Shown here piece by piece: positions 1-14,270 of a stretch of 14,270 nt of DNA. Numbering within the stretch: position 1 is the first letter of the stretch; each line of letters starts with the position of its first letter. The notes beneath the pieces were generated by a model that saw only the letters and a program-made list of their open reading frames with translations, made no database searches and was not told where the DNA came from. Location of the stretch: positions 1-14,270 of the IMG/VR virus record IMGVR_UViG_2609459861_000003; one strand, 5' to 3'. Source of the DNA: a virus (taxonomy: Duplodnaviria > Heunggongvirae > Uroviricota > Caudoviricetes). The position numbers and the translations under genes were made by a program.

Positions 1-1173
1 TCAGGCCTTATGGTGGAAATAATCACTCAGGCGGGAAAACATGCTGCCTTCCCCGACAGATTCCAGGGTAACCAGCGGCCAGTGCGCCACCTGTTTATCA
101 CGGTCGTAAAGTTCAATTTCCCCTACCCGCTGATGGGAGCTAATTGGCGCGGTGAGCTCTTTACCATCAAGGGTATATTTGGCTTTGATATGTGGAATTT
201 CGGCTTTCGGTAGCACCATCCAGAACTCTTGTTCCGTTCCCAGGGCGATATTTTCTTTATCGCCATACCAGATGCGTTCCGTACCGACCTTTTTCCCACG
301 GTGCAAAATTTGCACCGTAGTAAAGTTTTGTTGCCCCCAACGCAGTAATTTTCTTGCCTCTTCCTCACGACCTTTTGCACTGTCAGCCCCCATTACCACT
401 GCAATGAGACGACGCTGCCCATCTACAGCCGAAGCAATGAGGTTAAAACCGGCACCAGAAGTATGACCCGTTTTCAGGCCGTCAACATTCATGGTTTTAT
501 CCCACAATAACCCGTTACGGTTTTGCTGAGTGATACCGTTCCAGGTGAGGCTTTTCTCACTGTACATATGATAAAACTCGGGCTCGCCGTGGATGATAGC
601 GCGAGAAAGCACGGCTAAATCATAAGCCGAGCTATGCTGGCCAGGTGCATCCAGACCATGCACTGTTTCAAAATGCGTATCCTTGAGATGCAGCTTCTCG
701 GCATAGTTGTTCATCATTTCAACAAACTGCCGTTGCCCACCGGCAATATAGTCAGCCAGAGCAACACAAGCGTCATTTCCGGAATCCACAATTAAACCAC
801 GGCTTAAATCACGTACCGATACGCGATCGCCCTCTTTCAAAAACATCAGTGAAGAACCGACAAACACCGGATTATCTTTCGCCCACGCATCACGCCCCAC
901 GGTGACAATATCGTCTGGCGTAATGCGATGACTATCGATAGCGCGATCCACGACATAACCCGTCATCAGCTTTGTCAGGCTGGCGGGATTGCGCTGTTGA
1001 TGCTCATTACCCGCGGTGAGAATCTGACCGGTGGTGTAATCCATCAGTACCCAGGACCCGGCTTGAATCTGTGGAGGCTGAGGTGAAAAAGGAATGTTTT
1101 CCGCCGCAAAACCAGACGATAAGTTAAAAACGAACAAAGAAGCGGCAATAATAAGACGGCGTTTCAACAGCAA
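1..1173 (-). CDS. dacD: D-alanyl-D-alanine carboxypeptidase DacD (PBP6b), S11 serine peptidase
   Basis: Complete 390-aa ORF with stop at 1-3. N-terminal signal-peptide-like segment; SxxK (SLTK), SGN and KTG active-site motifs of class A low-MW PBPs. Distinct from DacA/DacC as recalled. Divergent neighbour is sbcB, as at the E. coli dacD locus. Confidence 0.85.
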   Translation of the reverse strand: MLLKRRLIIAASLFVFNLSSGFAAENIPFSPQPPQIQAGSWVLMDYTTGQILTAGNEHQQRNPASLTKLMTGYVVDRAIDSHRITPDDIVTVGRDAWAKDNPVFVGSSLMFLKEGDRVSVRDLSRGLIVDSGNDACVALADYIAGGQRQFVEMMNNYAEKLHLKDTHFETVHGLDAPGQHSSAYDLAVLSRAIIHGEPEFYHMYSEKSLTWNGITQQNRNGLLWDKTMNVDGLKTGHTSGAGFNLIASAVDGQRRLIAVVMGADSAKGREEEARKLLRWGQQNFTTVQILHRGKKVGTERIWYGDKENIALGTEQEFWMVLPKAEIPHIKAKYTLDGKELTAPISSHQRVGEIELYDRDKQVAHWPLVTLESVGEGSMFSRLSDYFHHKA

Positions 1174-1375
1174 ACCCTCAGGAGTTTCAAATAGCTGTTC
1201 TTTTTACGGAAATACTTATGAACTGGCTGGAATAAAGTGCAAGAAAATGTGACTACCCTCCCATTTTTATCTGACATGATCTGTTGCCACTCGCTGTCAA
1301 ATTATCGCGCTAAAGCTGATTAGCACGGTGATATTTGATACTCTGGCAGACAGCAGAAATAACGGATTTAACCTA

Positions 1376-1438
1376 ATGATGAATGACGGTAAGCAACAAT
1401 CTACCTTTTTGTTTCACGATTACGCGCAATACCCCTGA
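1376..1438 (+). pseudogene. sbcB: Exonuclease I (sbcB) 5' end interrupted by prophage insertion
   Basis: ATGATGAATGACGGTAAG... encodes MMNDGKQQSTFLFHDY, matching the SbcB N-terminus as recalled (next residues should be ETFG). Here the frame continues AQYP then stops at 1436-1438, so host/phage junction is at about 1424/1425. Confidence 0.6.
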
Positions 1439-1810
1439 GAACCGCCATGAACAAGGGTTTCATGATTTGTGATTTTAGTTTGGTACGCAATTTGGTACAC
1501 AACACAATTTTCACTTCAGCGGGTAGTCATCAAACTCACCATAACGAGCATCGTTAATGATGTATGTGATCACCACAAACATCACATCTGGAATAGTTCC
1601 GTTTTCATGCGCAGGTATTTGTTCACGCCTCCCTTTCTGCAAATCCTAAAGATGAGATTTTGGGGTTTTGGGATATCTTTTATCCTCAGTTCTCTATCCA
1701 TTATGCAAACCAGTAATGAACCATCACCGTGTGATAGTGAGGCATCTGCCACGATAAGCGCAGAGAAATGATGCAGTGGTGGGCGGACTGGCTGGACGAA
1801 AAGACACAGT

Positions 1811-1844
1811 AATCAAAAGCGGCAGGCCACATAAAAAGCCTGCC
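1811..1844 (-). terminator. Putative intrinsic terminator of the LexA-controlled operon
   Basis: Inverted repeat GGCAGGC / GCCTGCC (1821-1827 and 1838-1844) with a 10-nt loop, directly after the stop at 1845-1847; followed on the minus-strand RNA by GCUUUUGAUU. Confidence 0.45.
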
Positions 1845-2162
1845 TTATACCGCTACGCTGTCACTTCTCACATCGATGATGGTGTGTGTCACCACGCCGG
1901 CGACAGTGATATCATCCAGGGCCTCGCCTTCAATCGCTTCGCCGTCTTCAGTAATCAGGGCCCTCCCTCTCAACGTGGCAAGCTCAGTCCCGCCGCCGTG
2001 CTGGATCAGAACCTGACTACCCTGCTTTGGCTTCAGGGAGATATCCAGCACAACATAACCGCCATCCCTTTCGAAAACGCGGGTGTTAGGACCAACATTG
2101 CATATCGAGTTAACGGACAGTCGCTGCTCGACGTAGTCCGCTGCGGGTGAAGGAAAGCCCAT
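1845..2162 (-). CDS. UmuD'-like S24-family protein (HumD-like); Ser/Lys catalytic dyad apparently absent
   Basis: 105 aa starting MGFPSPAADYVEQR, which matches UmuD immediately after its Cys24-Gly25 self-cleavage site (recalled UmuD: ...CGFPSPAADYVEQRIDLN...). C-terminus DDITVAGVVTHTIIDVR parallels UmuD DTLDVFGVVIHVVKAMR. No GDSM serine motif and no aligned catalytic Lys visible by eye. ATG overlaps upstream stop by 1 nt (TAATG). Confidence 0.6.
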   Translation of the reverse strand: MGFPSPAADYVEQRLSVNSICNVGPNTRVFERDGGYVVLDISLKPKQGSQVLIQHGGGTELATLRGRALITEDGEAIEGEALDDITVAGVVTHTIIDVRSDSVAV

Positions 2163-2401
2163 TACAAAACCCTACCCATGTTAGCCATCATCCACAAACG
2201 GTTTTCGCTATGGTCGGTGGTTTTGTCGACAAAGTACGTCTGCTCTCTAGATATCCACGCATTAGCCTCTGAGTCGGTAAAGTGCAGCCCACGCCGGAGC
2301 AGCGCTGACACAAAATCCTTTGTATGCAGATACTGGTAGCCTTTGGAGTTGCGCAATACCGACTCGCGGAAAGCCTGATAGATGTCTGACTGACGGTGCA
2401 T
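2162..2401 (-). CDS. Hypothetical 79-aa protein, first gene of LexA-box operon
   Basis: ATG at 2401-2399 preceded by GGAGGG with 6-nt spacer; LexA box 19 bp upstream; translationally coupled to the downstream UmuD'-like gene. No family recognised. Confidence 0.55.
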   Translation of the reverse strand: MHRQSDIYQAFRESVLRNSKGYQYLHTKDFVSALLRRGLHFTDSEANAWISREQTYFVDKTTDHSENRLWMMANMGRVL

Positions 2402-2419
2402 GATCTTCCCTCCGATGAT

Positions 2420-2439
2420 TACTGTTTTTATATACAGTA
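2420..2439 (-). promoter_or_regulatory. LexA (SOS) box overlapping the promoter of the 79-aa/UmuD'-like operon
   Basis: Minus strand reads TACTGTATATAAAAACAGTA = CTG-N10-CAG with perfect TACTG/CAGTA arms and AT-rich centre (consensus TACTGTATATATATACAGTA). Flanked by a 10-bp inverted repeat TGATCTTCCC / GGGAAGATCA. Confidence 0.7.
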
Positions 2440-2620
2440 GTTTTACTGTAAGGGAAGATCAATAGCTGTTGCGACTATCAATGGTAGTAACCGGAAATGT
2501 TACTGAATCATATGACTTTGTTGGCGTTCAGCCAATGAATTCCATCTGTTGAAGTATTGGCTACGGCACTGGAAGGTTCATTGGTTTGAATGCTCTGCCA
2601 TCAAAGCCTAGTGGTGATTA

Positions 2621-2872
2621 TTAATCAATTATTGAGAAATTGCTCAGGTATGTTTCTTTAGCCAAAGAAAACACATCATCAGGTTCTCCACTGAGAGTTA
2701 CTACGTTGAAATCGAATATTTTATTTTCCTTGCCCTCTCCATCATAAATTCCGATAGCACTGATATAAAGATCTCCATCTTTCACGGTGTCATCTATGTA
2801 GGCAAAACATCCTACCTTCGATTCGCCATAGCGAGAGTTCGTCGATATGTAATCACCTTTCATGTAAGTCAT
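2621..2872 (-). CDS. Hypothetical 83-aa protein, AT-rich, coupled to the tailspike gene
   Basis: ATG at 2872-2870 overlaps the tailspike stop (ATGA overlap); ORF track gives an alternative TTG start at 2884. No family recognised. Confidence 0.45.
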   Translation of the reverse strand: MTYMKGDYISTNSRYGESKVGCFAYIDDTVKDGDLYISAIGIYDGEGKENKIFDFNVVTLSGEPDDVFSLAKETYLSNFSIID

Positions 2873-4203
2873 AGTGTTCCCCAAGCAGCTCTGAAGATGG
2901 AATATGCGTATGCGCTATTTAAATAAGATGTGTAGTCTCCGGCAATATAGTCCTGACTGGATACATCCCATTTCCTTACTACAGCATAGGATGATGTGAC
3001 GCTATAAACTAAATAATAATAACCGTTTATTAGCATGTATTCACCGGCAGACAGTAGCGAGCTCCCCATGGCTATTACTGTTTCTCCAGAAACAATCGTA
3101 TTGTATAGCGAGTAAGCAGGCCCCCAGCCACTGTTGAATGGCAAATTGCCTGTAGCCCGAATGAGGTTATCTTCCCCAGTCGTAGCGGAATACATCATGT
3201 ACGGCGCGGTGAATGAACAGCGATAGTACCTAGTGTTGTTTGCGGATGGCCAACCACGAGGTGTCGTGTTGTACGGTATGCCATCTGTCTGAACTCCGTT
3301 GTAGACCTGCTGAACCATTCTTGTATAGACACATCCGTTAGATTTTTTGGGAACGTAAAGAAAACACCTGCCAATGCTTTCATGGTTATTCACCCCAATA
3401 TCAACGTAAATCATCCCTCCAGTTGTCACAAAGGAGTCAATACAGTTTTTTAGTGTGTTGTTATAAACGCGAGTGTAACCAACTGCATTCTTCCAGCGGA
3501 TGCCCTGGCTGGAGGCAATATCCGCCCCTGTTATCGTGCATCCAATTACAGAACAATTATACGCAGCTGTATTTATCCGGTTAAAGAAAACACCAGAGTT
3601 ACTAAATCCTGAAATACGGCACGAAGATATTGCCACGTTTCCGCATGATTCGATGAACACTCCTACGCTTACATCACGGATAGTGTTATTACTAACAACA
3701 ACATCCTCCGCAACTCCCTGTCCAGATTCGTCAGTTACGTTACCAAAGATATCAATGCCATTATCACCGCAGGAGGCCACGGCACATCCCGTAATGGTCA
3801 TCCCGTTGGGGCGTTCACACTGAATGCCAATATATTCAACGTTGTGAACGTAGCAGTTCATAATTCTTGAGTTAGAACAGCCATAAACCGTATTGTTAGC
3901 TCGGCGTAAATAAATCCCTCCAGAAGTGCTATCTATCGCCTTAACGTTATCAATAGTGACATTATCCGAGTCCAAGATATTAATGCAGGTAATCCCCGTT
4001 CCGGCAGCGGTGCCACGGCTGCCGTTAAGCGTGATCCCCTGAATCTTGCAGTTATCGGCGGCGCCTTCCCAGTTTGTAATGATTGCGCCGCTGGCTGAGC
4101 CAGTAAAATTGCCATCAAGCGTGATTGCTCCGCCGCCCATCAGTGTTACACCACTACGCATACACAGCGCACCTCGACCCGCAGCAACCTCACCAGGTAT
4201 CAA
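2869..4203 (-). CDS. Tailspike/tail-fiber protein fragment with right-handed parallel beta-helix (pectate-lyase-like); N-terminal virion-binding part missing
   Basis: 444-aa ORF rich in Gly/Asn/Ser/Thr/Val/Ile/Cys repeats typical of beta-helix rungs (e.g. NCYVHNVEYIGIQCERPNGMTITGCAVASCGDNGIDIFGN). Frame is open upstream to 4266 with no ATG and no RBS; first listed start is TTG. Abuts the helicase fragment. Confidence 0.65.
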   Translation of the reverse strand: MIPGEVAAGRGALCMRSGVTLMGGGAITLDGNFTGSASGAIITNWEGAADNCKIQGITLNGSRGTAAGTGITCINILDSDNVTIDNVKAIDSTSGGIYLRRANNTVYGCSNSRIMNCYVHNVEYIGIQCERPNGMTITGCAVASCGDNGIDIFGNVTDESGQGVAEDVVVSNNTIRDVSVGVFIESCGNVAISSCRISGFSNSGVFFNRINTAAYNCSVIGCTITGADIASSQGIRWKNAVGYTRVYNNTLKNCIDSFVTTGGMIYVDIGVNNHESIGRCFLYVPKKSNGCVYTRMVQQVYNGVQTDGIPYNTTPRGWPSANNTRYYRCSFTAPYMMYSATTGEDNLIRATGNLPFNSGWGPAYSLYNTIVSGETVIAMGSSLLSAGEYMLINGYYYLVYSVTSSYAVVRKWDVSSQDYIAGDYTSYLNSAYAYSIFRAAWGTL

Positions 4204-4601
4204 AGTTGAATTAGGATTGAGAGTAACGGAGAATTCACCTCCAATGAGAATATTGGTTGGGCCGCTTCACGAACCTGCATTGCATAGGCAACGATGTTTG
4301 CGGCGCTTGGCGTGTTCTTTGCGATCTCAGCGATATAAGCAAAACCGCCAACAGACGCCGTTAACGATTTACGCTCCAGTTCATCGAAAAGCGTCAGGCC
4401 ATCTACTGGCTTTTGCTCCCGGTGCATTCTGGTTATCTCTTCGAAAAGAATTTTGTGTGGTCGGCTGTAAAATGAATCAGGCTTCAGCATCGCCAGAACT
4501 TTCTGGACGCGCTCACTGCTGTCATCATCCAGAAGCAATCCACCAATCACCGCCTGCTCTGCCTCGATGCTATGGGGCGGCGCATAAAAATTATCGGTCA
4601 T
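4200..4601 (-). pseudogene. DnaB-family replicative helicase, N-terminal fragment only (P22 gene 12-like), truncated at deletion junction
   Basis: MTDNFYAPPHSIEAEQAVIGGLLLDD...GGFAYIAEIAKNTPSAANIVAYA matches the DnaB N-terminal domain (E. coli DnaB PPHSIEAEQSVLGG...GGFAYLAELSKNTPSAANISAYA). Only about 115 helicase-like residues, then unrelated sequence and a stop at 4200-4202. RBS GAGG before ATG at 4601. Confidence 0.75.
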
Positions 4602-5481
4602 CGTGTTCACCCTCACGAACTTTCAGGTAGGTATTGTCGTTAAGCAGGAAATCAAATCCCTTTTTGTGCCAGACGGTTCCGCGCTGATGGTTTGGGCGCT
4701 CTTCGAACATCCATCGGCAATTTTCGCCTACGTAGCTCAAATAATTTCTCCAGTCCTGCATCGTGAACCCATGCCCGTCAAGCTGGCGGGTTATCACTCC
4801 GGCTTTGCGCCAGAACGTTCGGATCTGGTTTTTACGCTTGTCATTCAGTGCGCGGATTTTTGGCGCTTCAGGAAGGATTTCGTGGTAAGCATCGACAACA
4901 TCCTGACAGCTAACGGAAGGTTTTTTCTTGTCAGACTTTTTGTCTGCTGCGGTACTCTCTAATACGTCAGTATTAGAGATATTATTTATATTATTGTTTA
5001 TGGACAACCGTTGGACAACCGTTGGACAATCTCCGCTGAGAGCCGCGCCATTACTGGTGTTTGCGTTGGACAACCGTTGGACAACCGTTGGACAATTTTT
5101 TGCCTGAAAATCGTCATATTTAACGATTGTAAACAGGCTAAATTTCTTCCCCATCGAGCAAATATTAAGCATCCCTTTCGACTCAAAAGTCCGCAATAAG
5201 CTCCGAACTTTGTTGTCGGGGATGAATGTTTCTCTGACCAGCGACGGGCGTCCAGTTATCATCTGACCGCGATCAACAGTTATCGGCCCGATATCCGTAT
5301 TGACGACAGTAGATTCGTGATTAGCCTTGAGGATTAAGTGAAGCCAAAGATGTACTGCCTGAGAGTCCTTATAGAGCCTGCTGTCCATAAACTGGCGGTG
5401 TATAGAGACATACCCCATACTGGATGCCTCCTGATGTTGTACAGGGTTATGCCTGTAATCAGCTAACTTAACGACGCCCAT
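4591..5481 (-). CDS. Replication initiation protein, lambda O / P22 gp18 analogue, with origin iterons inside the gene
   Basis: 296-aa ORF with GGAG RBS before ATG at 5481; located cII -> O -> helicase as in lambdoid phages; contains the iteron cluster. Sequence unlike lambda O. Confidence 0.7.
   Translation of the reverse strand: MGVVKLADYRHNPVQHQEASSMGYVSIHRQFMDSRLYKDSQAVHLWLHLILKANHESTVVNTDIGPITVDRGQMITGRPSLVRETFIPDNKVRSLLRTFESKGMLNICSMGKKFSLFTIVKYDDFQAKNCPTVVQRLSNANTSNGAALSGDCPTVVQRLSINNNINNISNTDVLESTAADKKSDKKKPSVSCQDVVDAYHEILPEAPKIRALNDKRKNQIRTFWRKAGVITRQLDGHGFTMQDWRNYLSYVGENCRWMFEERPNHQRGTVWHKKGFDFLLNDNTYLKVREGEHDDR
4960..5097. repeat. Phage replication origin: two clusters of three 11-bp iterons (GTTGGACAACC, GTTG/CAAC dyad) plus adjacent AT-rich unwinding region
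   Basis: Direct repeats at about 5000-5029 and 5065-5095 with exact 11-bp periodicity; AT-rich stretch 4960-5000 immediately downstream in the direction of O transcription. Confidence 0.7.
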
Positions 5482-5639
5482 GTTTCACTCCTGCTTTGGC
5501 TAGTCTGTAAACACCAACAAGGCGCTCTGCGAACGCCCTGTTATTTGCTGCGGCTACCACTAATCCCTCAGGTGAATCAGGGTGTCGAATCTCTTCTTTT
5601 TCCTGGTATTTCTTACGACGTTTTGTCATAATTACTCCT

Positions 5640-5716
5640 GTGGATTGATCCAGTAATTCCCTCAGAATTGCATATCAATTTGCTTAAAATCCTCGGTGGC
5701 GGCCGGGGATTTTTTC
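5640..5716 (+). ncRNA. oop: oop-like antisense RNA overlapping the cII 3' end
   Basis: Sequence GTGGATTGATCCAGTAAT...CCTCGGTGGCGGCCGGGGATTTTTTCTTT is colinear with lambda oop as recalled (GTTGATAGATCCAGTAATGACC...GGTTGCCGCCGGGCGTTTTTTATT). Terminator hairpin CCUCGG/CCGGGG (5691-5708) plus U-run; candidate -10 CATAAT at 5627-5632. Confidence 0.6.
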
Positions 5717-5958
5717 TTTGTGACTTCATCAAGCGCATACTTAAAAGCCCTGCTAATCGGACTGATGTCTGATGCCATTCCAAAAGCACACAAGACCGAA
5801 GCAATAAATCTCCAGTCCGTTCTGCTTATCTTCGATTCATGACAGCCAATCATCTTTGCCAGACCGCGCTGGGTAAGCGTTGACAGGTTGATGAGTAAAT
5901 CAGTTTCAGCGCGATCAATTTCTCGCTGTGTTGGCTTGCTGTAACTTGCTTGTGTCAT
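5662..5958 (-). CDS. cII: CII-family transcriptional activator (lambda cII / P22 c1 homologue)
   Basis: 98 aa; C-terminus KKKSPAATEDFKQIDMQF parallels lambda CII KKRPAATERSEQIQMEF; position between cro and O; overlapped by oop and by the PRE -35. Confidence 0.8.
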   Translation of the reverse strand: MTQASYSKPTQREIDRAETDLLINLSTLTQRGLAKMIGCHESKISRTDWRFIASVLCAFGMASDISPISRAFKYALDEVTKKKSPAATEDFKQIDMQF

Positions 5959-5967
5959 TTGTTAATT
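5936..5967 (+). promoter_or_regulatory. PRE-like CII-dependent promoter (TTGC-N6-TTGC) directed toward cI
   Basis: TTGCTGTAACTTGC at 5936-5949 overlapping the cII start codon, with candidate -10 TTAATT at 5962-5967; same arrangement as lambda PRE. Confidence 0.6.
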
Positions 5968-6042
5968 TTCCAATAGTGAATAGTTAGTTGAAAGGTATGC
6001 GTGGAAACGCATATGGCCTTAGTTGGTCAGATATATTGGGAC

Positions 6043-6057
6043 TCGCTTTGTCAGCGA
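6043..6057 (-). promoter_or_regulatory. nutR boxB-like hairpin, P22 type (loop GACAA)
   Basis: Minus-strand UCGCU-GACAA-AGCGA between cro and cII; same loop as the nutL hairpin. Confidence 0.5.
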
Positions 6058-6095
6058 CGTAGGACGAATGTCCATTGTGAAAATAGCGGTGTTAC

Positions 6096-6305
<210 letters not shown>

Positions 6306-6322
6306 TTAGTACATGCAACCAT

Positions 6323-6386
6323 TATCACCGCTAGAGGTAAAATAGTCAACACGCACGGTGTTAGATATTTATCCCTTGCGGTGATA
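6323..6386. promoter_or_regulatory. OR1-OR2-OR3 operators with divergent PR (toward cro) and PRM (toward cI)
   Basis: OR1 TATCACCGCTAGAGGTA (6323-6339), OR2 CAACACGCACGGTGTTA (6347-6363), OR3 TATCCCTTGCGGTGATA (6370-6386). PRM -35 TAGATA / -10 TAGATT with leaderless cI ATG at 6397. Confidence 0.9.
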
Positions 6387-6393
6387 GATTTAA

Positions 6394-7110
<717 letters not shown>

Positions 7111-7258
7111 TCGGCAAGGTGTTCTGGTCGGCGCATAGCTGGTGAAAAAATTATTTAATGCGGTGTATTGGCTGATTGTAACCCCATGTAACATCTTGCC
7201 GTCACCATTTCGGTGGTTAGATTTTTAATAAAAAAACAAATGTATAGCAAGGTTTTTT

Positions 7259-7738
7259 ATGGATAAAATTAATTACCCACCCCTGTTTGAGCCAGGGTTC
7301 CATGACATGGATGAAGCTGGATTAAAATCGTATTGTGTCGATTGCTTTCCTTCATCATCCAGGCGAGGCATGCTATACTGTAATTTTATACAGCTACTCG
7401 AATCTATTCGAGAATTATCTGCTCAATATGGCTGTTTTACAGAAATATGGGTTGATGGTTCATACACCACGTCTAAACCAGAGCCTGATGATATTGATAT
7501 TTTGTTGGTATGTGACTATAGCAATATAAACTCAATACCTGTCATGCTTCGGGGCCGCGTCGATAATTTGCTTGACCGAAACTACATCAAACAAAACTAC
7601 AAAATTGATGTCCTACTACTCATGAAGAATTTAGATGACCCTAACTATGATTATGAGTACTGGCGTAGCTACTGGCGCGGTTGGTTTGGTTTTGATCGCA
7701 GTGAAAACCCGAAAGGGTTAGTGAGGATTTTTTTATGA
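7259..7738 (+). CDS. Nucleotidyltransferase-fold protein (Pol-beta-like NTase motif), first gene of rex-position cassette
   Basis: 159 aa; helix then FTEIWVDGSYTTSKPEPDDIDILLV, i.e. hG[GS]-x9-DxD with G67-S68 and D78/D80, and a third acidic residue in KIDVLLL (D117). Stop overlaps next start (ATGA). Confidence 0.6.
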   Translation: MDKINYPPLFEPGFHDMDEAGLKSYCVDCFPSSSRRGMLYCNFIQLLESIRELSAQYGCFTEIWVDGSYTTSKPEPDDIDILLVCDYSNINSIPVMLRGRVDNLLDRNYIKQNYKIDVLLLMKNLDDPNYDYEYWRSYWRGWFGFDRSENPKGLVRIFL

Positions 7739-8667
7739 ATGATAAATCAATGTTTAAAAATTGCGATAAACGCATTGATTTCATTCAAAAAGAAGTCGAT
7801 GCAATGAAGCAAAACAAAACCAGGTCCTTTGCTGACATGCTTCTTTATCGCTCCATGGATTCTCATCTGAGCGATTTGAAGGCCGAAAAATTAAAGCAAG
7901 ATAGTCGGCACCCACTTATCGATTTTTTTGAGCTGCGGCTGAAAGGCTCTGAGGTTGACTTTGGCTCTATTCCTTTAGAGCTGCTTGGGGCTATTTCAAC
8001 AAATCTTGCAGCGCTAATACAAAGAGCAACACACAAAATTGCCTCAGGCAAGGACTCAAAAAAAGTTCCCTACGACGTGAAAAGCTCCTTAAACCTCAGG
8101 CTGGCTGATTTATCCCCTGGGTCTACAAAATTGGGCGTCACCTTCTCTACAGGAATAGCAGAATTAGTAGAAACAGTACCCAGCAAGGCTGTAAAAGGCA
8201 TATTCGATTTGTTGTTAAGCGATGACGACAACAACTTCATGAATCACGTCGCTGAAATTGGATACAATTCCACTGTAAGCCTTAAGAGAATCGTAGAGGA
8301 ATGCGATAAACACAACTTAACATTTGATGCAAGTTGGACCGGTCCATTTAGTAATGGCACCAAGGTGGCAACTATTGACTCCAATAAAATTAAGTACTTG
8401 GTGAGTAGACTTACATCAACCATTTCATCCCCTCCCATTACTGAAACGGTTACAGGCGAACTGGTCGTTCTATCCAAATATGGGAAGCTGGAGCTTGATG
8501 TTGGTGGTGAACATTTAAAGGCTTCCTATCCGATTGAAATGCTAGATTTAATACAAAAAAAACACAAGGTCGGACAGATTGTTTCTCTTTTAGTGGAGAC
8601 TACTGAGATTCACAATGATCGCATAGGTCTGTACCGTAAAAACCATCTTGTTAAATCGGTTCTTTAA
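7735..8667 (+). CDS. Hypothetical 310-aa protein, second gene of rex-position cassette
   Basis: Translationally coupled to the NTase gene; AT-rich by eye; no transmembrane segment or known catalytic motif recognised. Confidence 0.6.
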   Translation: MNDKSMFKNCDKRIDFIQKEVDAMKQNKTRSFADMLLYRSMDSHLSDLKAEKLKQDSRHPLIDFFELRLKGSEVDFGSIPLELLGAISTNLAALIQRATHKIASGKDSKKVPYDVKSSLNLRLADLSPGSTKLGVTFSTGIAELVETVPSKAVKGIFDLLLSDDDNNFMNHVAEIGYNSTVSLKRIVEECDKHNLTFDASWTGPFSNGTKVATIDSNKIKYLVSRLTSTISSPPITETVTGELVVLSKYGKLELDVGGEHLKASYPIEMLDLIQKKHKVGQIVSLLVETTEIHNDRIGLYRKNHLVKSVL

Positions 8668-8674
8668 TATCTCA

Positions 8675-8700
8675 CCCGGCCACCGCGCCGGGTTTTCTTT
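8675..8700 (+). terminator. Intrinsic terminator closing the cI/cassette operon (tIMM-like)
   Basis: CCCGGC-caccgc-GCCGGG hairpin followed by TTTTCTTT. Confidence 0.7.
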
Positions 8701-8846
8701 GCCTCACGTTCGCCCCAAAACACATAACCAATTGTATTTATTTGAAAATTAATAGATACAACTCACTAAACATAGCAATTCAGATCTCTCACCTACCAAA
8801 CAATGCCCCCCTGCAAAAAATAAATTCATATAAAAAACATACAGAT

Positions 8847-8909
8847 AACCATCTGCGGTGATGAATTATCTCTAGCGGTGTTGACATAAATACCACTGGC
8901 GGTGATACT
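8847..8909 (+). promoter_or_regulatory. OL3-OL2-OL1 operators and PL promoter
   Basis: OL3 AACCATCTGCGGTGATG (8847-8863), OL2 TATCTCTAGCGGTGTTG (8867-8883), OL1 TACCACTGGCGGTGATA (8891-8907). PL -35 TTGACA at 8881-8886 and -10 GATACT at 8904-8909; near-identical to lambda PL as recalled. Confidence 0.85.
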
Positions 8910-8977
8910 AAACACATCAGCAGGACGCACTACTCACCAGGGCGGTGAATATACAACGATTCAAACATGAATCTACG

Positions 8978-8992
8978 GCGCTGACAAAGCGC
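8978..8992 (+). promoter_or_regulatory. nutL boxB hairpin, P22 type
   Basis: GCGCTGACAAAGCGC: 5-bp stem with GACAA loop, matching the P22 boxB RNA as recalled, about 65 nt downstream of the PL start. Confidence 0.6.
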
Positions 8993-9059
8993 AATAACTG
9001 GTCAGACGAAGAATTCATTCGTCATATGAAAGAATTAATCGGTAACGAAGGAGATATTC

Positions 9060-9230
9060 ATGTCACTTGCAACCACAGTGAAGGAGAGCAAGTTACAGAG
9101 ACGCATGTACACGCAGCAGGCGTTAATGTATCGCCAGAAGGGAGATCGTGAAGGTGTTCGCGTATTTTTAAATGCGGCAAAGACTGAAGTATTAAATCAG
9201 CGTTATTTCCTTGGGCCATGTCCATTCTGA
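9060..9230 (+). CDS. Hypothetical 56-aa protein immediately upstream of erf (position of P22 arf)
   Basis: Not in the ORF track (<60 aa). Strong RBS GGAGAT with 6-nt spacer before ATG at 9060; ends 11 nt before the erf ATG. Sequence not arginine-rich, so not an N-like antiterminator. Confidence 0.45.
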   Translation: MSLATTVKESKLQRRMYTQQALMYRQKGDREGVRVFLNAAKTEVLNQRYFLGPCPF

Positions 9231-9240
9231 GAACAATCAT

Positions 9241-9846
9241 ATGAGCAAAGAATTTTACGCAAGACTGGCAGCTATTCAGGAGAATCTGAACGCGCCAAAG
9301 AATCAGTACAACTCATTCGGAAAATATAAATACAGAAGCTGCGAAGACATTCTTGAAGGCGTTAAGCCGTTACTGAATGGCCTGTTTTTATCAATCAGCG
9401 ATGAAGTTGTGTTGATTGGTGATCGGTATTACGTGAAAGCCACGGCAACTATTACCGATGGCGAAAACAGTCATACGGCAACCGCTCTTGCACGAGAGGA
9501 AGAAAGCAAGAAAGGGATGGATTCTGCACAAGTTACGGGAGCTACAAGCTCTTATGCACGCAAGTATTGCCTCAATGGTTTGTTCGGCATTGATGATGCG
9601 AAAGATGCAGATACAGACGAGCATAAACATCAGCAGAACGCAGTAGCAAAGCAATCAAAACCATCACCTACACCTGAACAGGTTCTAAAAGCATTCACTG
9701 ACGCAGCAATGCAGAAAAACACCGTGGAAGAGCTTAAACAGGCGTTCGCCAAAGCGTGGAAGATGCTCGAAGGCACACCGGAGCAGCACAAAGCGCAGGA
9801 CGTTTACAACATCAGACGAGACGAATTAGAAGGAGCGGCTGCTTAA
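9241..9846 (+). CDS. erf: ERF-family single-strand annealing protein
   Basis: 201 aa from ATG 9241 (track gives upstream TTG at 9211); ERF-like core GKYKYRSCEDILEGVKPLL...DRYYVKATATITDGENSHTATA; location in the PL operon. Confidence 0.75.
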   Translation: MSKEFYARLAAIQENLNAPKNQYNSFGKYKYRSCEDILEGVKPLLNGLFLSISDEVVLIGDRYYVKATATITDGENSHTATALAREEESKKGMDSAQVTGATSSYARKYCLNGLFGIDDAKDADTDEHKHQQNAVAKQSKPSPTPEQVLKAFTDAAMQKNTVEELKQAFAKAWKMLEGTPEQHKAQDVYNIRRDELEGAAA

Positions 9847-10229
9847 TGGCACATTCGATTACTGTAAGACTAAACAAGCCCGCAAGAGAGTTTCAGGCCG
9901 GGGAAAATATCGGATTCAACATCCGTGCTGGCGTTCAGTATTACGATCGCCAGACAAAAAAGAAAGAATGGACAAACTACAGCGCCGTTGTATTTGCCAA
10001 GCCGGGGGCGCAAGCGGATTACTACCGTAGTGTTCTTGTTGAAGGTGGCATTGTAGAAATTACCGGAGAAAACATCAGGGTTGATGTTTATCAGGGGCAA
10101 AATGGTCAATCAATCACTCTTGAATTACTGAATGCGAAGATTGGATTTGCAGCTTCAGGAAACAGCCAACAGCAGCAAAGTAGCAATCATCAAAATCATC
10201 CTGAATACGACGATTCAATTCCATTCTAG
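9846..10229 (+). CDS. ssb: Single-stranded DNA-binding protein
   Basis: 128 aa from ATG 9846 overlapping the erf stop (TAATG). OB-fold-like core and Gln-rich linker ending in the acidic tail DDSIPF, typical of SSB C-termini. Confidence 0.8.
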   Translation: MAHSITVRLNKPAREFQAGENIGFNIRAGVQYYDRQTKKKEWTNYSAVVFAKPGAQADYYRSVLVEGGIVEITGENIRVDVYQGQNGQSITLELLNAKIGFAASGNSQQQQSSNHQNHPEYDDSIPF

Positions 10230-10252
10230 ATTAGCAAAATAAGGATTCCATT

Positions 10253-10549
10253 ATGCCAGCGCCTCTGTATGGTGCGGATGACCAGCGCCGCTGTTCCGGA
10301 AATTCCGTATCGGAGGTGCTGGATAAATTCAGAAAAAACTACGACCTGATAATGTCGCTACCGCAGGAAACGAAAGAGGAAAAGGAATTTCGCCACTGTA
10401 TATGGCTTGCAGAGAAAGAAGAACGAGAGCGAATTTACCAGACATCAATCCGACCATTCCGCAAAGCCACATATACCCACTTCCCTGAATATATCGACCC
10501 GCGCCTGCGTAATTACCGCTCACGCTATGGCGCTATCAGTAATGACTGA
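10253..10549 (+). CDS. Hypothetical 98-aa protein (position analogous to anti-RecBCD abc genes of P22; unverified)
   Basis: AAGGA RBS with 7-nt spacer before ATG 10253; family not recognised. Confidence 0.5.
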   Translation: MPAPLYGADDQRRCSGNSVSEVLDKFRKNYDLIMSLPQETKEEKEFRHCIWLAEKEERERIYQTSIRPFRKATYTHFPEYIDPRLRNYRSRYGAISND

Positions 10550-10559
10550 GGAATTAACA

Positions 10560-10850
10560 ATGAAAACAATGAAGCTAAACATCGACCTCGGAAAATACGT
10601 TATTACCGGAACCAAACACGATCTGATTCTTAGCGAAAGAGGAATTATCAAAGAAGGCGAGAATGCAGGGAAAGAAACACTAAGCCGTATCGGTTATTAC
10701 AGCAAGTTTGAGCATCTGGTTAAAGAATTATGCAACCGTGAAATCCTGTTATCTCAGGCGCAGACGCTACAGGATATTCAGCAGCATATCGAGACTTTAG
10801 GTGTGTCACTTAGCATGGCTATTGACCAGTTCGTGGAGAGTAAATCATGA
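10560..10850 (+). CDS. Hypothetical 96-aa protein
   Basis: GAGGAA RBS with 6-nt spacer before ATG 10560 (in-frame alternative ATG at 10542); family not recognised. Confidence 0.5.
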
Positions 10851-11011
10851 GAGGACTTGCATACAATCCCGGCATTCTTCCGGCAGAAATGATTATTCGC
10901 CAACGCGTAAAGCCAATGCCATCGAGAGAGGAATTGCTTAAGAGAAATTCTTTTCCATCAGTGAATCAAAACAAATATCTGAATGCAATGTGGCGGAGTG
11001 GGAAGAAATGA
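10847..11011 (+). CDS. Hypothetical 54-aa protein (not in ORF track)
   Basis: ATG overlaps the upstream stop (ATGA) and its own stop overlaps the HNH gene ATG (ATGA): coupled on both sides. Confidence 0.35.
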
Positions 11012-11709
11012 AACAAATGTCACTAATTGAGATGGATGGTTTTCTGAAAGGTAAATGCATCCCAAGTGATTTAAAGGTTAACGAAACAAACGCTGAATAT
11101 CTGGTGCGTAAATTTGCTGAAGCGGAGGCCAAGTGCGCGGCGCTGACTGACTTATTTGGCGATGTGAAAGAGATTTTTGGTTTTAAGTATCGCTATTTCA
11201 TCACCTCAAAGGGGCTCATTTTCTCATTGGCCTCTGGAGAACTAAAGCAATTAAACCCAACCATGCGCGGTAAGAACAGAAATCAGTATTTATTCGTTAG
11301 GCTGGAGTTTGAAGGAAAACTAAAAGGCGTGAACATCCACCGATTAGTTGCTGAAAACTTTCTCGGCCCTAAGCCTTCTGATGAGCACGTAATTAACCAT
11401 ATAGACGGGAATAAACAAAACAATGATGTTTCAAACCTGGAGTGGACGACGGTAGCGGGCAACACTCAGCACGCATATAGAACAGGTCTGGCCGGGGGAA
11501 GAAAACACGGATCGTATAAAGGTCCAGTCTGCGCTGAGAACGAGGAAGGTTTTGGGTATGTGTTCTTTGACAGCAAACAGGCCATCGAGGCTGGATTTAA
11601 CCCAAACTCAATCAGGGACGCTGTTGTTAAGCCATGGAAGAAAGTATTCGGATTCTATTTTAGTCGCATCAATACCGATGCCCAGCTTCGCAAAGGAGGC
11701 AACCAGTGA
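11008..11709 (+). CDS. HNH endonuclease (homing-endonuclease-like)
   Basis: 233 aa from ATG 11008; HNH motif region [31 protein letters not shown]. Confidence 0.75.
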
Positions 11710-12296
11710 GCAAGATTGATTATCAAAAGCTTCGTGAAATCGCTGAAAAAACAAAAATTGCCGGTGAAGCACCTGTAATGCCTTTCGATCAGCGAATTAA
11801 TGCGCTTAACGATTTTATGAAGCACTTTTCGCCAGATATCGCGCTGGCATTGTTGGATGAACGGGAAAGGAACCAGCAATACATAAAACGCCGCGACCAG
11901 GAGAACGAGGATATTGCACTAACGGTATGGAGGCTGCTAATCGAAAACGGCCAGCTTGTTGCCGATACGCTACGCCACTTAGCTGATAACGAAATCGACT
12001 CTGATTATTTTGCTATCACCTCAACGAATGAGAACGGTACTGAAATTGATCATGAGATGGCTATTACCGATTACGCACTGCAAGCTGCCGGAACTGTAGA
12101 CGAATTGGTTGCGGCGCTGGAATCCGCAGAGAATCGCATAGCAGAACTGGAGGAGCGGGAAATACTGCTCCCGGAACGTAGCAGCATGCTTCATCGAACA
12201 GATTTTCACGAGGATTACCAAACGGTAATGGCATACAAAGTTTCTGAAGTCATCGCTGCAATCCGCTCCGCTGGCATTCGCATCAAAGGAGAGTGA
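11706..12296 (+). CDS. Hypothetical 196-aa protein with coiled-coil segment (possibly Ead/Ea22-like)
   Basis: GTG start at 11706 overlapping the HNH stop, preceded by AGGAGG with 6-nt spacer; acidic coiled-coil segment ESAENRIAELEEREILL. Confidence 0.5.
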   Translation: MSKIDYQKLREIAEKTKIAGEAPVMPFDQRINALNDFMKHFSPDIALALLDERERNQQYIKRRDQENEDIALTVWRLLIENGQLVADTLRHLADNEIDSDYFAITSTNENGTEIDHEMAITDYALQAAGTVDELVAALESAENRIAELEEREILLPERSSMLHRTDFHEDYQTVMAYKVSEVIAAIRSAGIRIKGE

Positions 12297-12297
12297 G

Positions 12298-12489
12298 ATG
12301 GACGGACAAATATCAATCGTTCGACCAGGAGCATGTGACGATCGCGAAATACGAATAATTATTCGTCTGGCAATGGGGAAAGCAATAACTGCTCTCATTA
12401 CCCCAGAAAATCTCGCATTAGCATTAACAGGAAAGTCAGCCCTGCCAGTAGAGCTAAAGCTGCGAAATGTTGAGATTAAGGTGAAATAG
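12298..12489 (+). CDS. Hypothetical 63-aa protein
   Basis: AGGAGAG RBS before ATG 12298; 1-nt gap from the upstream stop. Confidence 0.45.
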   Translation: MDGQISIVRPGACDDREIRIIIRLAMGKAITALITPENLALALTGKSALPVELKLRNVEIKVK

Positions 12490-12491
12490 CT

Positions 12492-13163
12492 ATGACCACT
12501 ATTACCAAAGAACGTATCGAATTATTCATTAAAAATCCGCTTGAAAACGGGCTTACTCGTGGCGAACAAATGGAACTGGCACGAATTGCACTGACATCAC
12601 TGGAACGCGAACAGATTCGCCACGAGCATGCCAAATGGTCGGACTCCACATTTGGCTGCGTTGGCCCCATTGGTCCACTGAAACACCTCTCAAAAGAGGC
12701 ACTGGAAGCCGCAGCCGAACCAGACGATCTTAGCGAGTGGGCTGATATGCAGTTTCTGTTGTGGGATTCACAGCGCCGTGCTGGCATCAGCGATGCTGAA
12801 ATTACCGCTGCTATGGAAGATAAATTGAAGATCAACATGGAGCGCCAGTGGCCTGAGCCAAAAGATGGTGAGCCTCGCTTGCACATTAAAGAACCCGGCA
12901 ACTCTCCGGTAATTCCGGATGGTTGGGTCATGGTGCCGAAGAGACTAACAGCCGAGAACGGCGCTAAGGGTGTGCTATCCGGTGAATTTTCAGAAACTAC
13001 GTTTATAAGCTGCCCGGAATGCTTTGGTGATGATGATTGCGAAACTTGTGACTGTAGCGGGAGAATCGAAATCAAGGTTCCAGTCAGTTGGACAACTATC
13101 AAAACTATTTGGGCTAAAGGGTGTGAGCACTTTTCAATAGTAGCACCGCAGCAAGATGGGTGA
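12492..13163 (+). CDS. Putative MazG-like nucleotide pyrophosphohydrolase domain protein (DUF550-like) with Cys-rich C-terminal region
   Basis: 223 aa; acidic helix pattern LSKEALEAAAEPDDLSEWADMQFLL reminiscent of MazG-type dNTP pyrophosphohydrolases common in prophage early regions; C-terminal CPECFGDDDCETCDC. Assignment from memory only. Confidence 0.45.
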   Translation: MTTITKERIELFIKNPLENGLTRGEQMELARIALTSLEREQIRHEHAKWSDSTFGCVGPIGPLKHLSKEALEAAAEPDDLSEWADMQFLLWDSQRRAGISDAEITAAMEDKLKINMERQWPEPKDGEPRLHIKEPGNSPVIPDGWVMVPKRLTAENGAKGVLSGEFSETTFISCPECFGDDDCETCDCSGRIEIKVPVSWTTIKTIWAKGCEHFSIVAPQQDG

Positions 13164-13229
13164 TGAAAACAAGTATTTATAACTTAAAAGCATTAAAAAA
13201 TCGCTTATAGACCAAAAGAAATCTACGTC

Positions 13230-13259
13230 AAATATTACTATATTTCAATGTGTTATAAT
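13230..13259 (+). promoter_or_regulatory. Candidate promoter with extended -10 (TGtTATAAT) for the 80-aa gene
   Basis: TGTTATAAT at 13251-13259 in an AT-rich intergenic region following a 125-nt gap after the upstream operon. Confidence 0.35.
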
Positions 13260-13289
13260 TACCCCGTACATAAAATGGGGGGACACAAA

Positions 13290-13532
13290 ATGTTCAAACG
13301 CTGCATCACCAAGTGTGGAAGCACACCTGACATCCAAGCTTTTATTAATGAAGATGGTAAGCTTGTTGTTGAGAGGAGTGGTCCTTTTATTAGCAAACAA
13401 CTTATCATTACCTCTCCAGCGGAGATGGCCGGAGAATGGATAGTTTCTGAACCAGAGGAGTTGCACATCCCGCTTCCTTATGGCCCTCAGGGACTGATTT
13501 ATAACCGTTATGTTCAGAAGGAGGCGGGTTGA
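13290..13532 (+). CDS. Hypothetical 80-aa protein
   Basis: GGGGGGA RBS with 6-nt spacer before ATG 13290 (track start 13248 is less likely); preceded by candidate promoter. Confidence 0.45.
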   Translation: MFKRCITKCGSTPDIQAFINEDGKLVVERSGPFISKQLIITSPAEMAGEWIVSEPEELHIPLPYGPQGLIYNRYVQKEAG

Positions 13533-13812
13533 CAATGTCAGGCATAACATCGCCGAGAAATCGAAAGAAAAACAGAACAAGGTAAACGTTGACCTTGCAG
13601 CATCAGGCATGGAGTACAGAGAGCGCCTTAACATACCTGTTATCACTGAGCAGGTATCATGAGAGCAACCTGAGCACTCACGCGAGTATTTCATGGAGCG
13701 CATCAGATACTATCGCGAGCAGTCGTTAAACATGCCCAAGGGAAGCAACCCATGGTATATCGATATGGATGAACAGAACGCCAAGAAGTAAACGCAATTT
13801 GAACGAATGCGA

Positions 13813-13839
13813 ACCCGCCGAGTGCGGGTTTTCTTTTAT
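13813..13839 (+). terminator. Intrinsic terminator
   Basis: ACCCGC-cgagt-GCGGGT hairpin followed by TTTCTTTTAT. Confidence 0.55.
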
Positions 13840-13880
13840 CTGAACTCGCTACGGCGAGTTTTGTTTTATGGAGATGATAA

Positions 13881-14048
13881 ATGCACTTCCGAGTTACAGG
13901 TGAATGGAATGGAGAACCATTCAACAGAGTTATCGAAGCAGAGAACATCAATGACTGCTATGACCACTGGATGCTGTGGGCGCAGATAGCACATGCAGAA
14001 GTAACCAATATTCGAATTGAAGAACTGAAAGAACACCAAACCGCCTGA
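13881..14048 (+). CDS. Hypothetical 55-aa protein upstream of xis (not in ORF track)
   Basis: GGAG RBS with 7-nt spacer before ATG 13881; encodes MHFRVTGEWNGEPFNRVIEAENINDCYDHWMLWAQIAHAEVTNIRIEELKEHQTA; stop lies inside a terminator hairpin. Confidence 0.45.
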   Translation: MHFRVTGEWNGEPFNRVIEAENINDCYDHWMLWAQIAHAEVTNIRIEELKEHQTA

Positions 14049-14064
14049 TGGCGGTTTCTTTTTG
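14039..14064 (+). terminator. Intrinsic terminator upstream of xis
   Basis: AACCGCC-tgat-GGCGGTT hairpin followed by TCTTTTTG. Confidence 0.6.
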
Positions 14065-14078
14065 CCTGGAGAATTAAG

Positions 14079-14270
14079 ATGACCGATACCAGCCTGATTC
14101 CTGAGAAAGAAGTGATGAACAAGCTCGGTGTTTCATCACGTCAGACAATCTGGAACTATACCAAACGGCATGGATTTCCGAAGCCAGTCAGAACCCACCC
14201 CAAATCATACCTTCGTGAAGCTGTTGAAGGGTGGATTCTTAACGGTGGCGTTAATCAGAAATGCTCCTGA
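14079..14270 (+). CDS. xis: Excisionase / AlpA-family helix-turn-helix DNA-binding protein
   Basis: 63 aa; GGAG RBS; HTH-like VMNKLGVSSRQTIWNYTKRHGFPKP; position at the end of the early-left operon where xis-int normally lie; stop at the window edge. Confidence 0.7.
   Translation: MTDTSLIPEKEVMNKLGVSSRQTIWNYTKRHGFPKPVRTHPKSYLREAVEGWILNGGVNQKCS

What the first reader, a model, noticed from the sequence alone, without database searches (positions are those of the whole stretch)
1376..1500. Prophage inserted inside the 5' end of sbcB (exonuclease I), next to dacD
The sbcB reading frame matches the recalled SbcB N-terminus for 16 codons (MMNDGKQQSTFLFHDY) and then diverges into phage DNA, with a stop four codons later. 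sbcB is a known lambdoid and Stx-phage integration site. Unless the far (attL) side of the prophage supplies a replacement promoter and N-terminus, exonuclease I would be inactivated, which matters because sbcB loss suppresses recBC phenotypes and interacts with the Erf/SSB recombination module carried by this element. Direct repeats TTTGGTAC at 1479-1486 and 1492-1499 may be integrase arm-type sites.
Basis: partly seen in the sequence, partly recalled or inferred. Interest (0 to 1): 0.5.

Follow-up and report, generated by a model that had tools for sequence, protein, structure and literature searches.

The report
Prophage junction in sbcB; gene rebuilt
This is one end of a decayed prophage sitting in the known sbcB attachment site of E. 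coli, and the phage brings its own start codon and first ten codons, so the exonuclease I reading frame is rebuilt at the other end rather than destroyed.

Summary
Window 1376-1424 is the native 5' end of sbcB (MMNDGKQQSTFLFHDY). Identity to uninterrupted sbcB stops at 1424, and a stop follows four codons later.

This is the int-distal junction (attR) of a phage 2851/Sf101-type integration module. The crossover core TTTCACGATTACG (1412-1424) is the published 13-bp attP core.

The suspected inactivation is not supported. A public contig identical to window 2492-14270 continues into an intact integrase, 181 bp of phage DNA, and a complete 474-aa sbcB. That gene starts with phage-encoded MTGTDKQPTFLFHDY and keeps all five DEDDh catalytic residues. 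About 10.7% of complete E. coli genomes carry this hybrid junction. It was annotated as intact sbcB in all five I opened.

The TTTGGTAC repeats are probably integrase arm-type sites. There are two here and three next to int. A 60%-identical Salmonella phage integrase has a different repeat at the same five positions.

Whether the phage DNA also supplies a working promoter is inferred, not shown.

The element itself is a remnant of about 14.2 kb. A deletion of about 25.8 kb fuses the helicase gene to the tailspike gene.

The integration site is already known. The closest mechanistic precedents are SXT in prfC and the dusA-specific islands.

The parts
1..1173 (-). dacD, the chromosomal gene flanking the insertion site
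   Evidence: Annotated as dacD in every matching E. coli genome.
1174..1375 (+). Native dacD-sbcB intergenic region holding the original sbcB promoter. It is now orphaned and points into the prophage.
   Evidence: Collinear with uninterrupted genomes. The promoter position itself is not mapped. The consensus scan finds none in 1174-1375.
1376..1438 (+). Orphaned sbcB stub ORF: 16 native codons, 4 phage codons and a TGA (MMNDGKQQSTFLFHDYAQYP*)
1412..1424 (+). attR copy of the 13-bp crossover core TTTCACGATTACG. It covers codons F13-H14-D15-Y16 and the first base of E17.
   Evidence: The core is identical in attB (L003), attR (window), attL (L007) and attP of seven free phages. It is the reverse complement of the published 2851/Sf101 attP core CGTAATCGTGAAA (PMC4159516).
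1425..1803 (+). Int-distal arm of attP (phage DNA)
   Evidence: It is contiguous with the int-side arm in free phages mEp234, EC.P3, E212 and Sf101 (94-97% identity). The same arm adjoins dacD in 574 of 5,426 E. coli genomes.
1479..1502 (+). Two tandem 12-nt repeats containing TGGTACRC, proposed integrase arm-type sites
   Evidence: These are the only two TGGTACRC matches in the window. Three more lie in the int-side arm. All five are in one orientation. SEN34 has TGTACTY at the same five aligned positions. The integrase has an Arm-DNA-bind_3 domain.
1845..2401 (-). attR-proximal cargo genes: a UmuD'-like protein (1845-2162) and a phrog_3893 protein (2162-2401)
   Evidence: A terminator-like hairpin lies at 1844-1821 on the minus strand.
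2869..4268 (-). C-terminal roughly two thirds of a P22-like tailspike gene. The part encoding its first ~170 codons is deleted.
   Evidence: Window 1-4268 matches L001 20001-24267 at 99.6%, ending inside the annotated tailspike. Pfam finds a Beta_helix domain.
4266..4616 (-). N-terminal ~112 codons of a DnaB-like helicase gene, fused at 4266-4268 to the tailspike fragment. This is the deletion junction.
   Evidence: Window 4266-6101 matches L002 18772-16936. Pfam finds a DnaB N-terminal domain.
4591..7110 (.). Replication-initiator-like gene (4591-5481, minus), cII (5662-5958, minus), cro (6096-6296, minus) and cI-type S24 repressor (6397-7110, plus)
   Evidence: Pfam families on the identical contig.
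9241..10549 (+). Recombination module: Erf (9241-9846), SSB ending in DDSIPF (9846-10229) and Abc2 anti-RecBCD (10253-10549)
14079..14270 (+). AlpA-type excisionase gene. Its stop codon is the last three bases of the window. int, attL and the rebuilt sbcB lie just beyond the right edge.
   Evidence: In L007 the integrase is at 11760-12938 (minus) and the hybrid sbcB at 13120-14544. These correspond to window-equivalent positions 14251-15429 and 15611-17035.

Best explanation
Window 1376-1500 is the int-distal junction (attR) of a lambdoid, P22-like element. It entered by tyrosine-integrase recombination between a 13-bp core in its attP and the identical 13 bp in codons 13-17 of sbcB. Those codons include the one for the catalytic Asp15. 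This is the phage 2851/Sf101 type of integration module. The 49 bases at 1376-1424 are the displaced native start of sbcB, left behind with the native promoter. They now encode only a 20-residue stub. The working gene is reassembled at the other junction. The int-proximal arm of attP carries an ATG and ten codons that are in frame with the core. The resulting lysogen gene encodes MTGTDKQPTFLFHDY followed by the unchanged remainder of exonuclease I. Shown here: the junction, the core, the contiguous attP in free phages, the complete hybrid ORF in a contig identical to the window, and the spread of that ORF. Inferred: that the 181 bp between int and the hybrid ATG contain a working promoter, so that ExoI is still made, possibly at a different level. 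Also inferred: that the five TGGTACRC repeats flanking the core are the binding sites of the integrase's arm-binding domain. The element is no longer a viable phage, because a deletion of about 25.8 kb removed everything from mid-helicase to the front part of the tailspike gene. Its int and xis genes are intact, so excision may still be possible.
For: The stub sequence and stop are confirmed. Homology to uninterrupted sbcB ends at 1424 in about 4,800 genomes. The core is identical in attB, attR and attL and matches the published 13-bp attP of phages 2851 and Sf101, which integrate in the 5' end of sbcB (PMC4159516). The reconstructed attP is contiguous in free phages mEp234, HK544, HK140, Sf101, EC.P3, E212 and APC_JM3.2. 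Three of these records (mEp234, HK544, HK140) annotate a prophage attachment site there; two label it 'type 2851'. Contig L007 has no mismatch to the window over 11,779 bases. It continues into a 392-aa integrase and a 474-aa sbcB. That integrase is 99.0-99.7% identical to those of 2851, Sf101 and mEp234. The hybrid differs from native SbcB at six of the first nine positions plus one allelic residue. D, E, D, H and D are all kept at the catalytic positions (residue roles from PMC3675492). Pfam RNase_T and Exonuc_X-T_C scores equal those of the native protein, and the RNase_T match starts at residue 12 or 13, after the swapped residues. The int-sbcB junction is present in 582 of 5,426 complete E. 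coli genomes. sbcB was a 1,425-nt CDS without a pseudogene flag in all five I opened, including one whose integrase is truncated by an IS element. The ATG and reading frame are conserved in all nine 2851-type attP or attL sequences. Salmonella phage SEN34 has the same core and an in-frame GTG...TFLFHDY. Relic junctions with integrase fragments but an intact sbcB exist in Pantoea species and in an Enterobacteriaceae MAG. For the arm sites.
Against: No expression data are available. The consensus scan calls no sigma-70 promoter in the 181-bp phage segment. The same scan also finds none in the native sbcB upstream region, so it is uninformative. The best candidate is only a TATAAC hexamer 37 bp upstream of the ATG, with a poor -35. 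The Shine-Dalgarno sequence is weak. The far junction is outside the window and is read from an identical public contig, not from the window itself. The effect of the changed N-terminus on ExoI activity is untested.
Confidence: 0.85

Rival explanations
1. One reading: the insertion cuts sbcB after codon 16 and leaves the cell without exonuclease I, giving an sbcB-null lysogen.
For: The native promoter and start codon are physically separated from the rest of the gene, and the stub stops after 20 codons. Some papers speak of 'disruption' of the sbcB site (PMC8309913).
Against: A complete 474-aa ORF with a phage-supplied ATG and all catalytic residues lies at the other junction in a contig identical to the window. 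The same ORF is annotated intact in the lysogens examined. It also survives where the prophage has decayed to an integrase fragment.
Confidence: 0.05
2. The ORF is rebuilt, but the phage arm lacks an adequate promoter or ribosome-binding site. In that case the lysogen is an sbcB hypomorph or is effectively silent.
For: No consensus promoter is called in the 181-bp segment, and the Shine-Dalgarno sequence is weak. In the documented dusA case, expression from the element-borne promoter was significantly lower than native (PMC8409611).
Against: The scan also misses the native promoter. Blocks upstream of the start (TTGACG, TTATAAC, AGTTAA-TAAC, GTGGACAA) are conserved between the E. coli phages and a relic in a species whose SbcB is only 77% identical. 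sbcB stays intact in relic-only genomes, which argues that it is still used.
Confidence: 0.12
3. The stub is a duplicated fragment of sbcB, or a relic of some other rearrangement, and not a site-specific recombination junction.
Against: Only the 13-bp core occurs at both ends. The 36 bases before it differ between the two junctions: native at attR, phage-type at attL. The two arms are contiguous in free phage genomes. The junction is base-for-base the same in 574-582 genomes.
Confidence: 0.01

Closest known systems
Phage 2851 (Stx2c) and Sf101-type int/attP module targeting sbcB. Phages mEp234, HK544 and HK140 carry the same module.
   Same: The 13-bp core is identical. The integrase is 99.0-99.7% identical. 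The insertion point in the 5' end of sbcB next to dacD is the same. The two attP arms are the same.
   Different: The element here is a deleted remnant of about 14.2 kb with a different, mosaic set of early genes and no stx or oac cargo. The papers I could read describe the site and the core but do not mention the N-terminal replacement. Strauch et al. 2008 was not available to me.
SXT/R391 conjugative elements in the 5' end of prfC
   Same: [quoted passage not shown]
   Different: It is a different element type (ICE), with a different integrase and target gene. For SXT a promoter is reported. Here it is only inferred.
dusA-specific integrative elements (for example IMEVchUSA3)
   Same: They insert in the 5' end of the target gene. 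[quoted passage not shown]
   Different: There a lacZ fusion showed expression, at a reduced level. No such measurement exists for sbcB. Their replaced N-terminus is longer: 35 residues at 61% identity, against 9 residues changed here.
Salmonella phage SEN34 integration module
   Same: It has the same 13-bp core at the same distance from a divergently oriented int. Five short repeats sit at the same aligned positions. An in-frame potential start runs into TFLFHDY.
   Different: The integrase is only 60% identical. The repeat motif is TGTACTY rather than TGGTACRC. The leader codons are different and begin with a GTG. I did not verify its integration site.

Membership tests
Phage 2851/Sf101-type sbcB integration module | 13-bp core CGTAATCGTGAAA shared by attP and sbcB | tested here: met
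   TTTCACGATTACG at window 1412-1424, at L007 13153 and in attB of L003. The published core is quoted in PMC4159516.
Phage 2851/Sf101-type sbcB integration module | Integrase about 99% identical to the 2851, Sf101, HK544 and mEp234 integrases | tested here: met
   The integrase of the identical contig L007 is 99.2% identical to 2851, 99.0% to Sf101 and 99.7% to mEp234. The gene itself lies just outside the window.
Phage 2851/Sf101-type sbcB integration module | The two junction arms are contiguous in a free phage genome (attP) | tested here: met
   The reconstructed attP matches mEp234, EC.P3, E212 and Sf101 over 97% of its length, and HK544, HK140 and APC_JM3.2 over 66-67%.
Heterobivalent (lambda-Int-like) tyrosine integrase system | N-terminal arm-binding domain plus a catalytic tyrosine recombinase domain | tested here: met
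   Pfam Arm-DNA-bind_3 covers residues 4-85 and Phage_integrase covers 204-366.
Heterobivalent (lambda-Int-like) tyrosine integrase system | Repeated arm-type sites on both sides of the core, bound by the integrase | tested here: inconclusive
   Five TGGTACRC copies flank the core, against about 0.6-0.8 expected per 14-20 kb. The positions are conserved with a changed motif in SEN34. Binding itself cannot be tested with these tools.
Elements that rebuild the 5' end of their target gene (SXT in prfC, dusA islands) | The element supplies an in-frame start codon and replacement N-terminal codons | tested here: met
   ATG plus ten codons run in frame into the core. The hybrid ORF is 474 aa.
Elements that rebuild the 5' end of their target gene (SXT in prfC, dusA islands) | The element supplies a functional promoter for the hybrid gene | tested here: inconclusive
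   No consensus promoter is called, but the scan also misses the native one. Upstream blocks are conserved in a distant relic. An expression assay is needed.
Exonuclease I (SbcB, DEDDh) | The five DEDDh residues (D15, E17, D108, H181, D186) and the three-domain architecture are kept in the hybrid | tested here: met
   All five residues are present. RNase_T and Exonuc_X-T_C score the same as in the native protein. The roles of four of them (D15, E17, D186, H181) come from PMC3675492; D108 is from general knowledge of the DEDDh motif.
Complete, inducible P22-like prophage | Full set of late genes: antiterminator Q, lysis, terminase, portal, capsid and tail | tested here: not met
   The window passes from the tailspike fragment directly into the helicase fragment at 4266-4268. 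About 25.8 kb is missing compared with strain XJ23PTE1.

The most novel reading that the evidence does not exclude
The promoter and N-terminus swap may not be neutral. If so, lysogens make exonuclease I at a different level, or under control of the int-sbcB divergent region where integrase binds. That covers about one in ten complete E. coli genomes, including O157 strains with Stx2c prophages. These same phages carry Abc2 (anti-RecBCD), Erf and an SSB with a host-like DDSIPF tail. Targeting sbcB would then be a form of lysogenic conversion of the host's recombination and mutation phenotype, a partial 'recBC sbcB' state. A related point is that relic junctions in Pantoea and other genera suggest phage-derived sbcB 5' ends and promoters can become fixed after the phage has gone.
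Probability: 0.12. Interest if true: 0.55.

Novelty: already known. Interest (0 to 1): 0.2.

Why it matters
sbcB occupancy is used to type O157 strains and is often described as disruption of the gene. The sequences show that the reading frame is restored by the phage, so lysogens should not be assumed to lack exonuclease I. If the phage-borne promoter changes ExoI levels, this would affect recombination and mutation phenotypes in a sizeable fraction of E. coli. That question can be tested directly with a cured and lysogen strain pair. Otherwise the finding is an ordinary att junction of a known integration module.

Tried and rejected
I looked for the window's own genome among 5,426 complete E. 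coli genomes. No record covers 80% or more of the window. An exact-protein look-up then found an identical draft contig.

Promoter and terminator scans of both the phage arm and the native upstream region were uninformative.

An Rfam scan of the whole window found nothing.

Strauch et al. 2008, the original phage 2851 paper, could not be retrieved by PubMed id or PMC id. I therefore cannot say whether the N-terminal replacement was noted there. A full-text search for sbcB, prophage, N-terminal, integrase and 'exonuclease I' returned only an unrelated review.

I looked for a second core or a native stub next to dacD in the Pantoea loci and found none. Those are one-sided relics, and their history remains open.

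I rejected the duplicated-fragment reading because only 13 bp are shared between the two junctions.

Full report
**Observation**

Window 1376-1480 translates to MMNDGKQQSTFLFHDYAQYP*, followed by further stops. The first 16 residues are the native SbcB N-terminus, as seen in an uninterrupted E. coli locus (L003). dacD occupies 1-1173 on the minus strand.

I compared window 1150-1560 with 5,426 complete E. coli genomes. Most match only as far as window position 1424 and have sbcB annotated there. A further 574 match the full stretch, so they carry the same foreign DNA after 1424.

The short repeat is real. It consists of two tandem 12-nt units, 1479-1490 and 1491-1502.

**What the junction is**

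I aligned the uninterrupted site (attB), the window (attR) and the far junction (attL). This defines a 13-bp common core, TTTCACGATTACG, at window 1412-1424. It is the reverse complement of CGTAATCGTGAAA. That sequence is the attP core published for Stx2c phage 2851 and for Sf101, and both phages integrate in the 5' end of sbcB (PMC4159516).

Joining the int-side arm to window 1425 onward reconstructs an attP. This attP is found contiguous, at 94-97% identity, in free phage genomes mEp234, EC.P3, E212, Sf101, HK544, HK140 and APC_JM3.2. Three of these records (mEp234, HK544, HK140) annotate a prophage attachment site there, two of them as 'type 2851'.

sbcB is documented as one of the four main Stx-prophage sites in O157 (PMC8309913; PMC3519850).

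The core lies on codons F13-H14-D15-Y16-E17. Asp15 and Glu17 are metal ligands of ExoI (PMC3675492). The phage therefore targets the most constrained part of the gene.

**The far end**

An exact-protein look-up with a window gene returned contig JNQH01000035.1 (L007). It has no mismatch to window 2492-14270 over 11,779 bases.

Beyond the window's last base, which is the stop codon of an AlpA-type excisionase gene, L007 continues as follows:
- A convergent 392-aa integrase with Arm-DNA-bind_3 and Phage_integrase domains. It is 99.0-99.7% identical to the 2851, Sf101 and mEp234 integrases.
- 181 bp of phage DNA.
- ATG ACA GGC ACA GAT AAA CAA CCT ACC TTC CTC, running straight into the core and the rest of sbcB.

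The product is 474 aa and begins MTGTDKQPTFLFHDYETFG. It differs from native SbcB at six of the first nine positions (five substitutions and one deleted residue), plus one allelic residue. It keeps D, E, D, H and D at the DEDDh positions. Its Pfam scores are the same as those of the native protein, and the exonuclease domain match starts only at residue 12 or 13. ExoI carrying an N-terminal tag remnant was used for crystallography with bound DNA, which suggests extra N-terminal residues do not disrupt folding.

**How general the rebuilt gene is**

The int-sbcB junction is present in 582 of 5,426 complete E. coli genomes. I opened five of them: XJ23PTE1, UPEC132, TW10598, 7386Nal and ET151. In each, sbcB is a 1,425-nt CDS without a pseudogene flag. 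This includes UPEC132, whose integrase is truncated by an IS element.

All nine 2851-type attP or attL sequences keep the ATG and the reading frame.

Salmonella phage SEN34 has an integrase only 60% identical. It still has the same core at the same distance from a divergent int, and an in-frame GTG leading into TFLFHDY.

**Relic junctions in other genera**

I scanned one genome per species for the phage-type codons joined to host sequence and found six loci.
- One is an E. coli lysogen.
- The other five are Pantoea stewartii, P. anthophila, a Pantoea sp., Tenebrionibacter and an Enterobacteriaceae MAG. They have phage-type sbcB 5' ends; three of the five also carry ~35-residue integrase N-terminal fragments, and three carry TGGTAC- or TGTAC-type repeats just upstream. 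No complete integrase was found.
- sbcB is open and full length (about 475 codons) in three of these loci; the P. anthophila and Tenebrionibacter loci end inside the gene.
- This fits a phage-derived 5' end that goes on working after the phage has decayed. I did not establish the history of these relics.

**What is inferred**

Expression of the hybrid gene is not shown. The consensus scan calls no promoter in the 181-bp arm. It also calls none in the native sbcB upstream region, so it has no discriminating power here.

By eye, the best candidate is TATAAC at L007 13078-13083, 37 bp before the ATG. It lies within blocks that are conserved in the MAG relic.

By analogy with dusA-specific elements, where a lacZ fusion showed expression at a reduced level (PMC8409611), a changed ExoI level is possible.

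**Arm-type sites**

TGGTACRC occurs only twice in the window, both times in the tandem repeat 57-76 bp beyond the core. In L007 it occurs three times within 42 bp next to int, and only once elsewhere in 20.7 kb. All five copies near the core have the same orientation.

In the alignment with SEN34 the arms are otherwise poorly conserved. Even so, SEN34 has TGTACTY at the same five positions. Conserved positions with a changed motif, alongside a diverged integrase that has an arm-binding domain, is what arm-type sites would show. Binding itself is untested.

**The element as a whole**

Window 1-4268 is collinear with the tailspike end of a complete P22-like prophage in strain XJ23PTE1. Window 4266-6101 is collinear with its helicase-to-cro segment.

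A deletion of about 25.8 kb therefore fused helicase codon ~112 to tailspike codon ~170, with 3 bp of overlap. It removed the nin region, Q, lysis and all virion genes.

The remnant is about 14.2 kb. It keeps the following:
- the UmuD'-like cargo genes;
- cI, cro and cII;
- a cI-adjacent pair of unknown function;
- Erf, an SSB and Abc2;
- xis and int.

**Comparison and verdict**

The site, the core and the integrase family are already described. The rebuilding of a 5' end by the inserting element follows the pattern reported for SXT in prfC and for dusA islands. I did not find it stated for sbcB in the papers available to me, and the original phage 2851 paper could not be read.

Its suggestion that sbcB is inactivated is not supported at the level of the reading frame. 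The finding is ordinary, apart from the open and testable question of whether ExoI expression changes in lysogens.

Noticed in passing
window 4266-4268 (flanks 2869-4268 and 4266-4616, minus strand): This is a deletion junction. The first ~112 codons of a DnaB-like helicase gene are fused to the last two thirds of a tailspike gene. About 25.8 kb of a P22-like prophage is missing, so the element is a remnant of about 14.2 kb.
   Followed up: yes
window 7259-7738 and 7735-8667 (plus strand): Two overlapping genes lie directly downstream of the cI repressor gene: a DUF6932 protein (phrog_9194) and a 310-aa protein (phrog_6603). Neither has a known function. They sit where lambdoid phages keep exclusion or defence genes such as rexAB.
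   Followed up: no
window 9846-10229 (plus strand): The phage SSB (phrog_44) ends in DDSIPF, which closely resembles the acidic C-terminal tip of host SSB. From general knowledge, that host tip is a docking site for exonuclease I, so the phage SSB may also contact ExoI. This was not tested.
   Followed up: no
window 1845-2401 (minus strand): The cargo at the attR end is a UmuD'-like protein that already lacks the N-terminal cleavage segment (phrog_3469), plus a small phrog_3893 protein. Other occupants of the same site carry different cargo here, such as HumD-like proteins, an O-acetyltransferase in Sf101, or a hypothetical gene in HK544.
   Followed up: partly
window 1174-1900 (plus strand): The orphaned native sbcB promoter now points into the prophage, antisense to the UmuD'-like gene. 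No plus-strand terminator is predicted between 1425 and 2000.
   Followed up: no
L021 (Pantoea stewartii) about 3900-4150; L022 (P. anthophila) about 7190-7510; L026 (Enterobacteriaceae MAG) 6100-6370; L024 (Tenebrionibacter): sbcB in these species has the phage-type 5' codons (TTC CTC before the core). Integrase N-terminal fragments of about 35 residues and/or TGGTAC- or TGTAC-type repeats lie just upstream, but no complete integrase. These look like fixed relics of the int-proximal junction. sbcB is open throughout: full length in L021 and L026, cut by the locus end in L022 and L024.
   Followed up: partly
L019 (Salmonella phage SEN34) 1580-1900: SEN34 has the same 13-bp core as the sbcB phages, although its integrase is only 60% identical. 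Five TGTACTY repeats sit at the positions of the TGGTACRC repeats. An in-frame GTG-initiated leader ends in TFLFHDY. Its integration site was not checked.
   Followed up: partly
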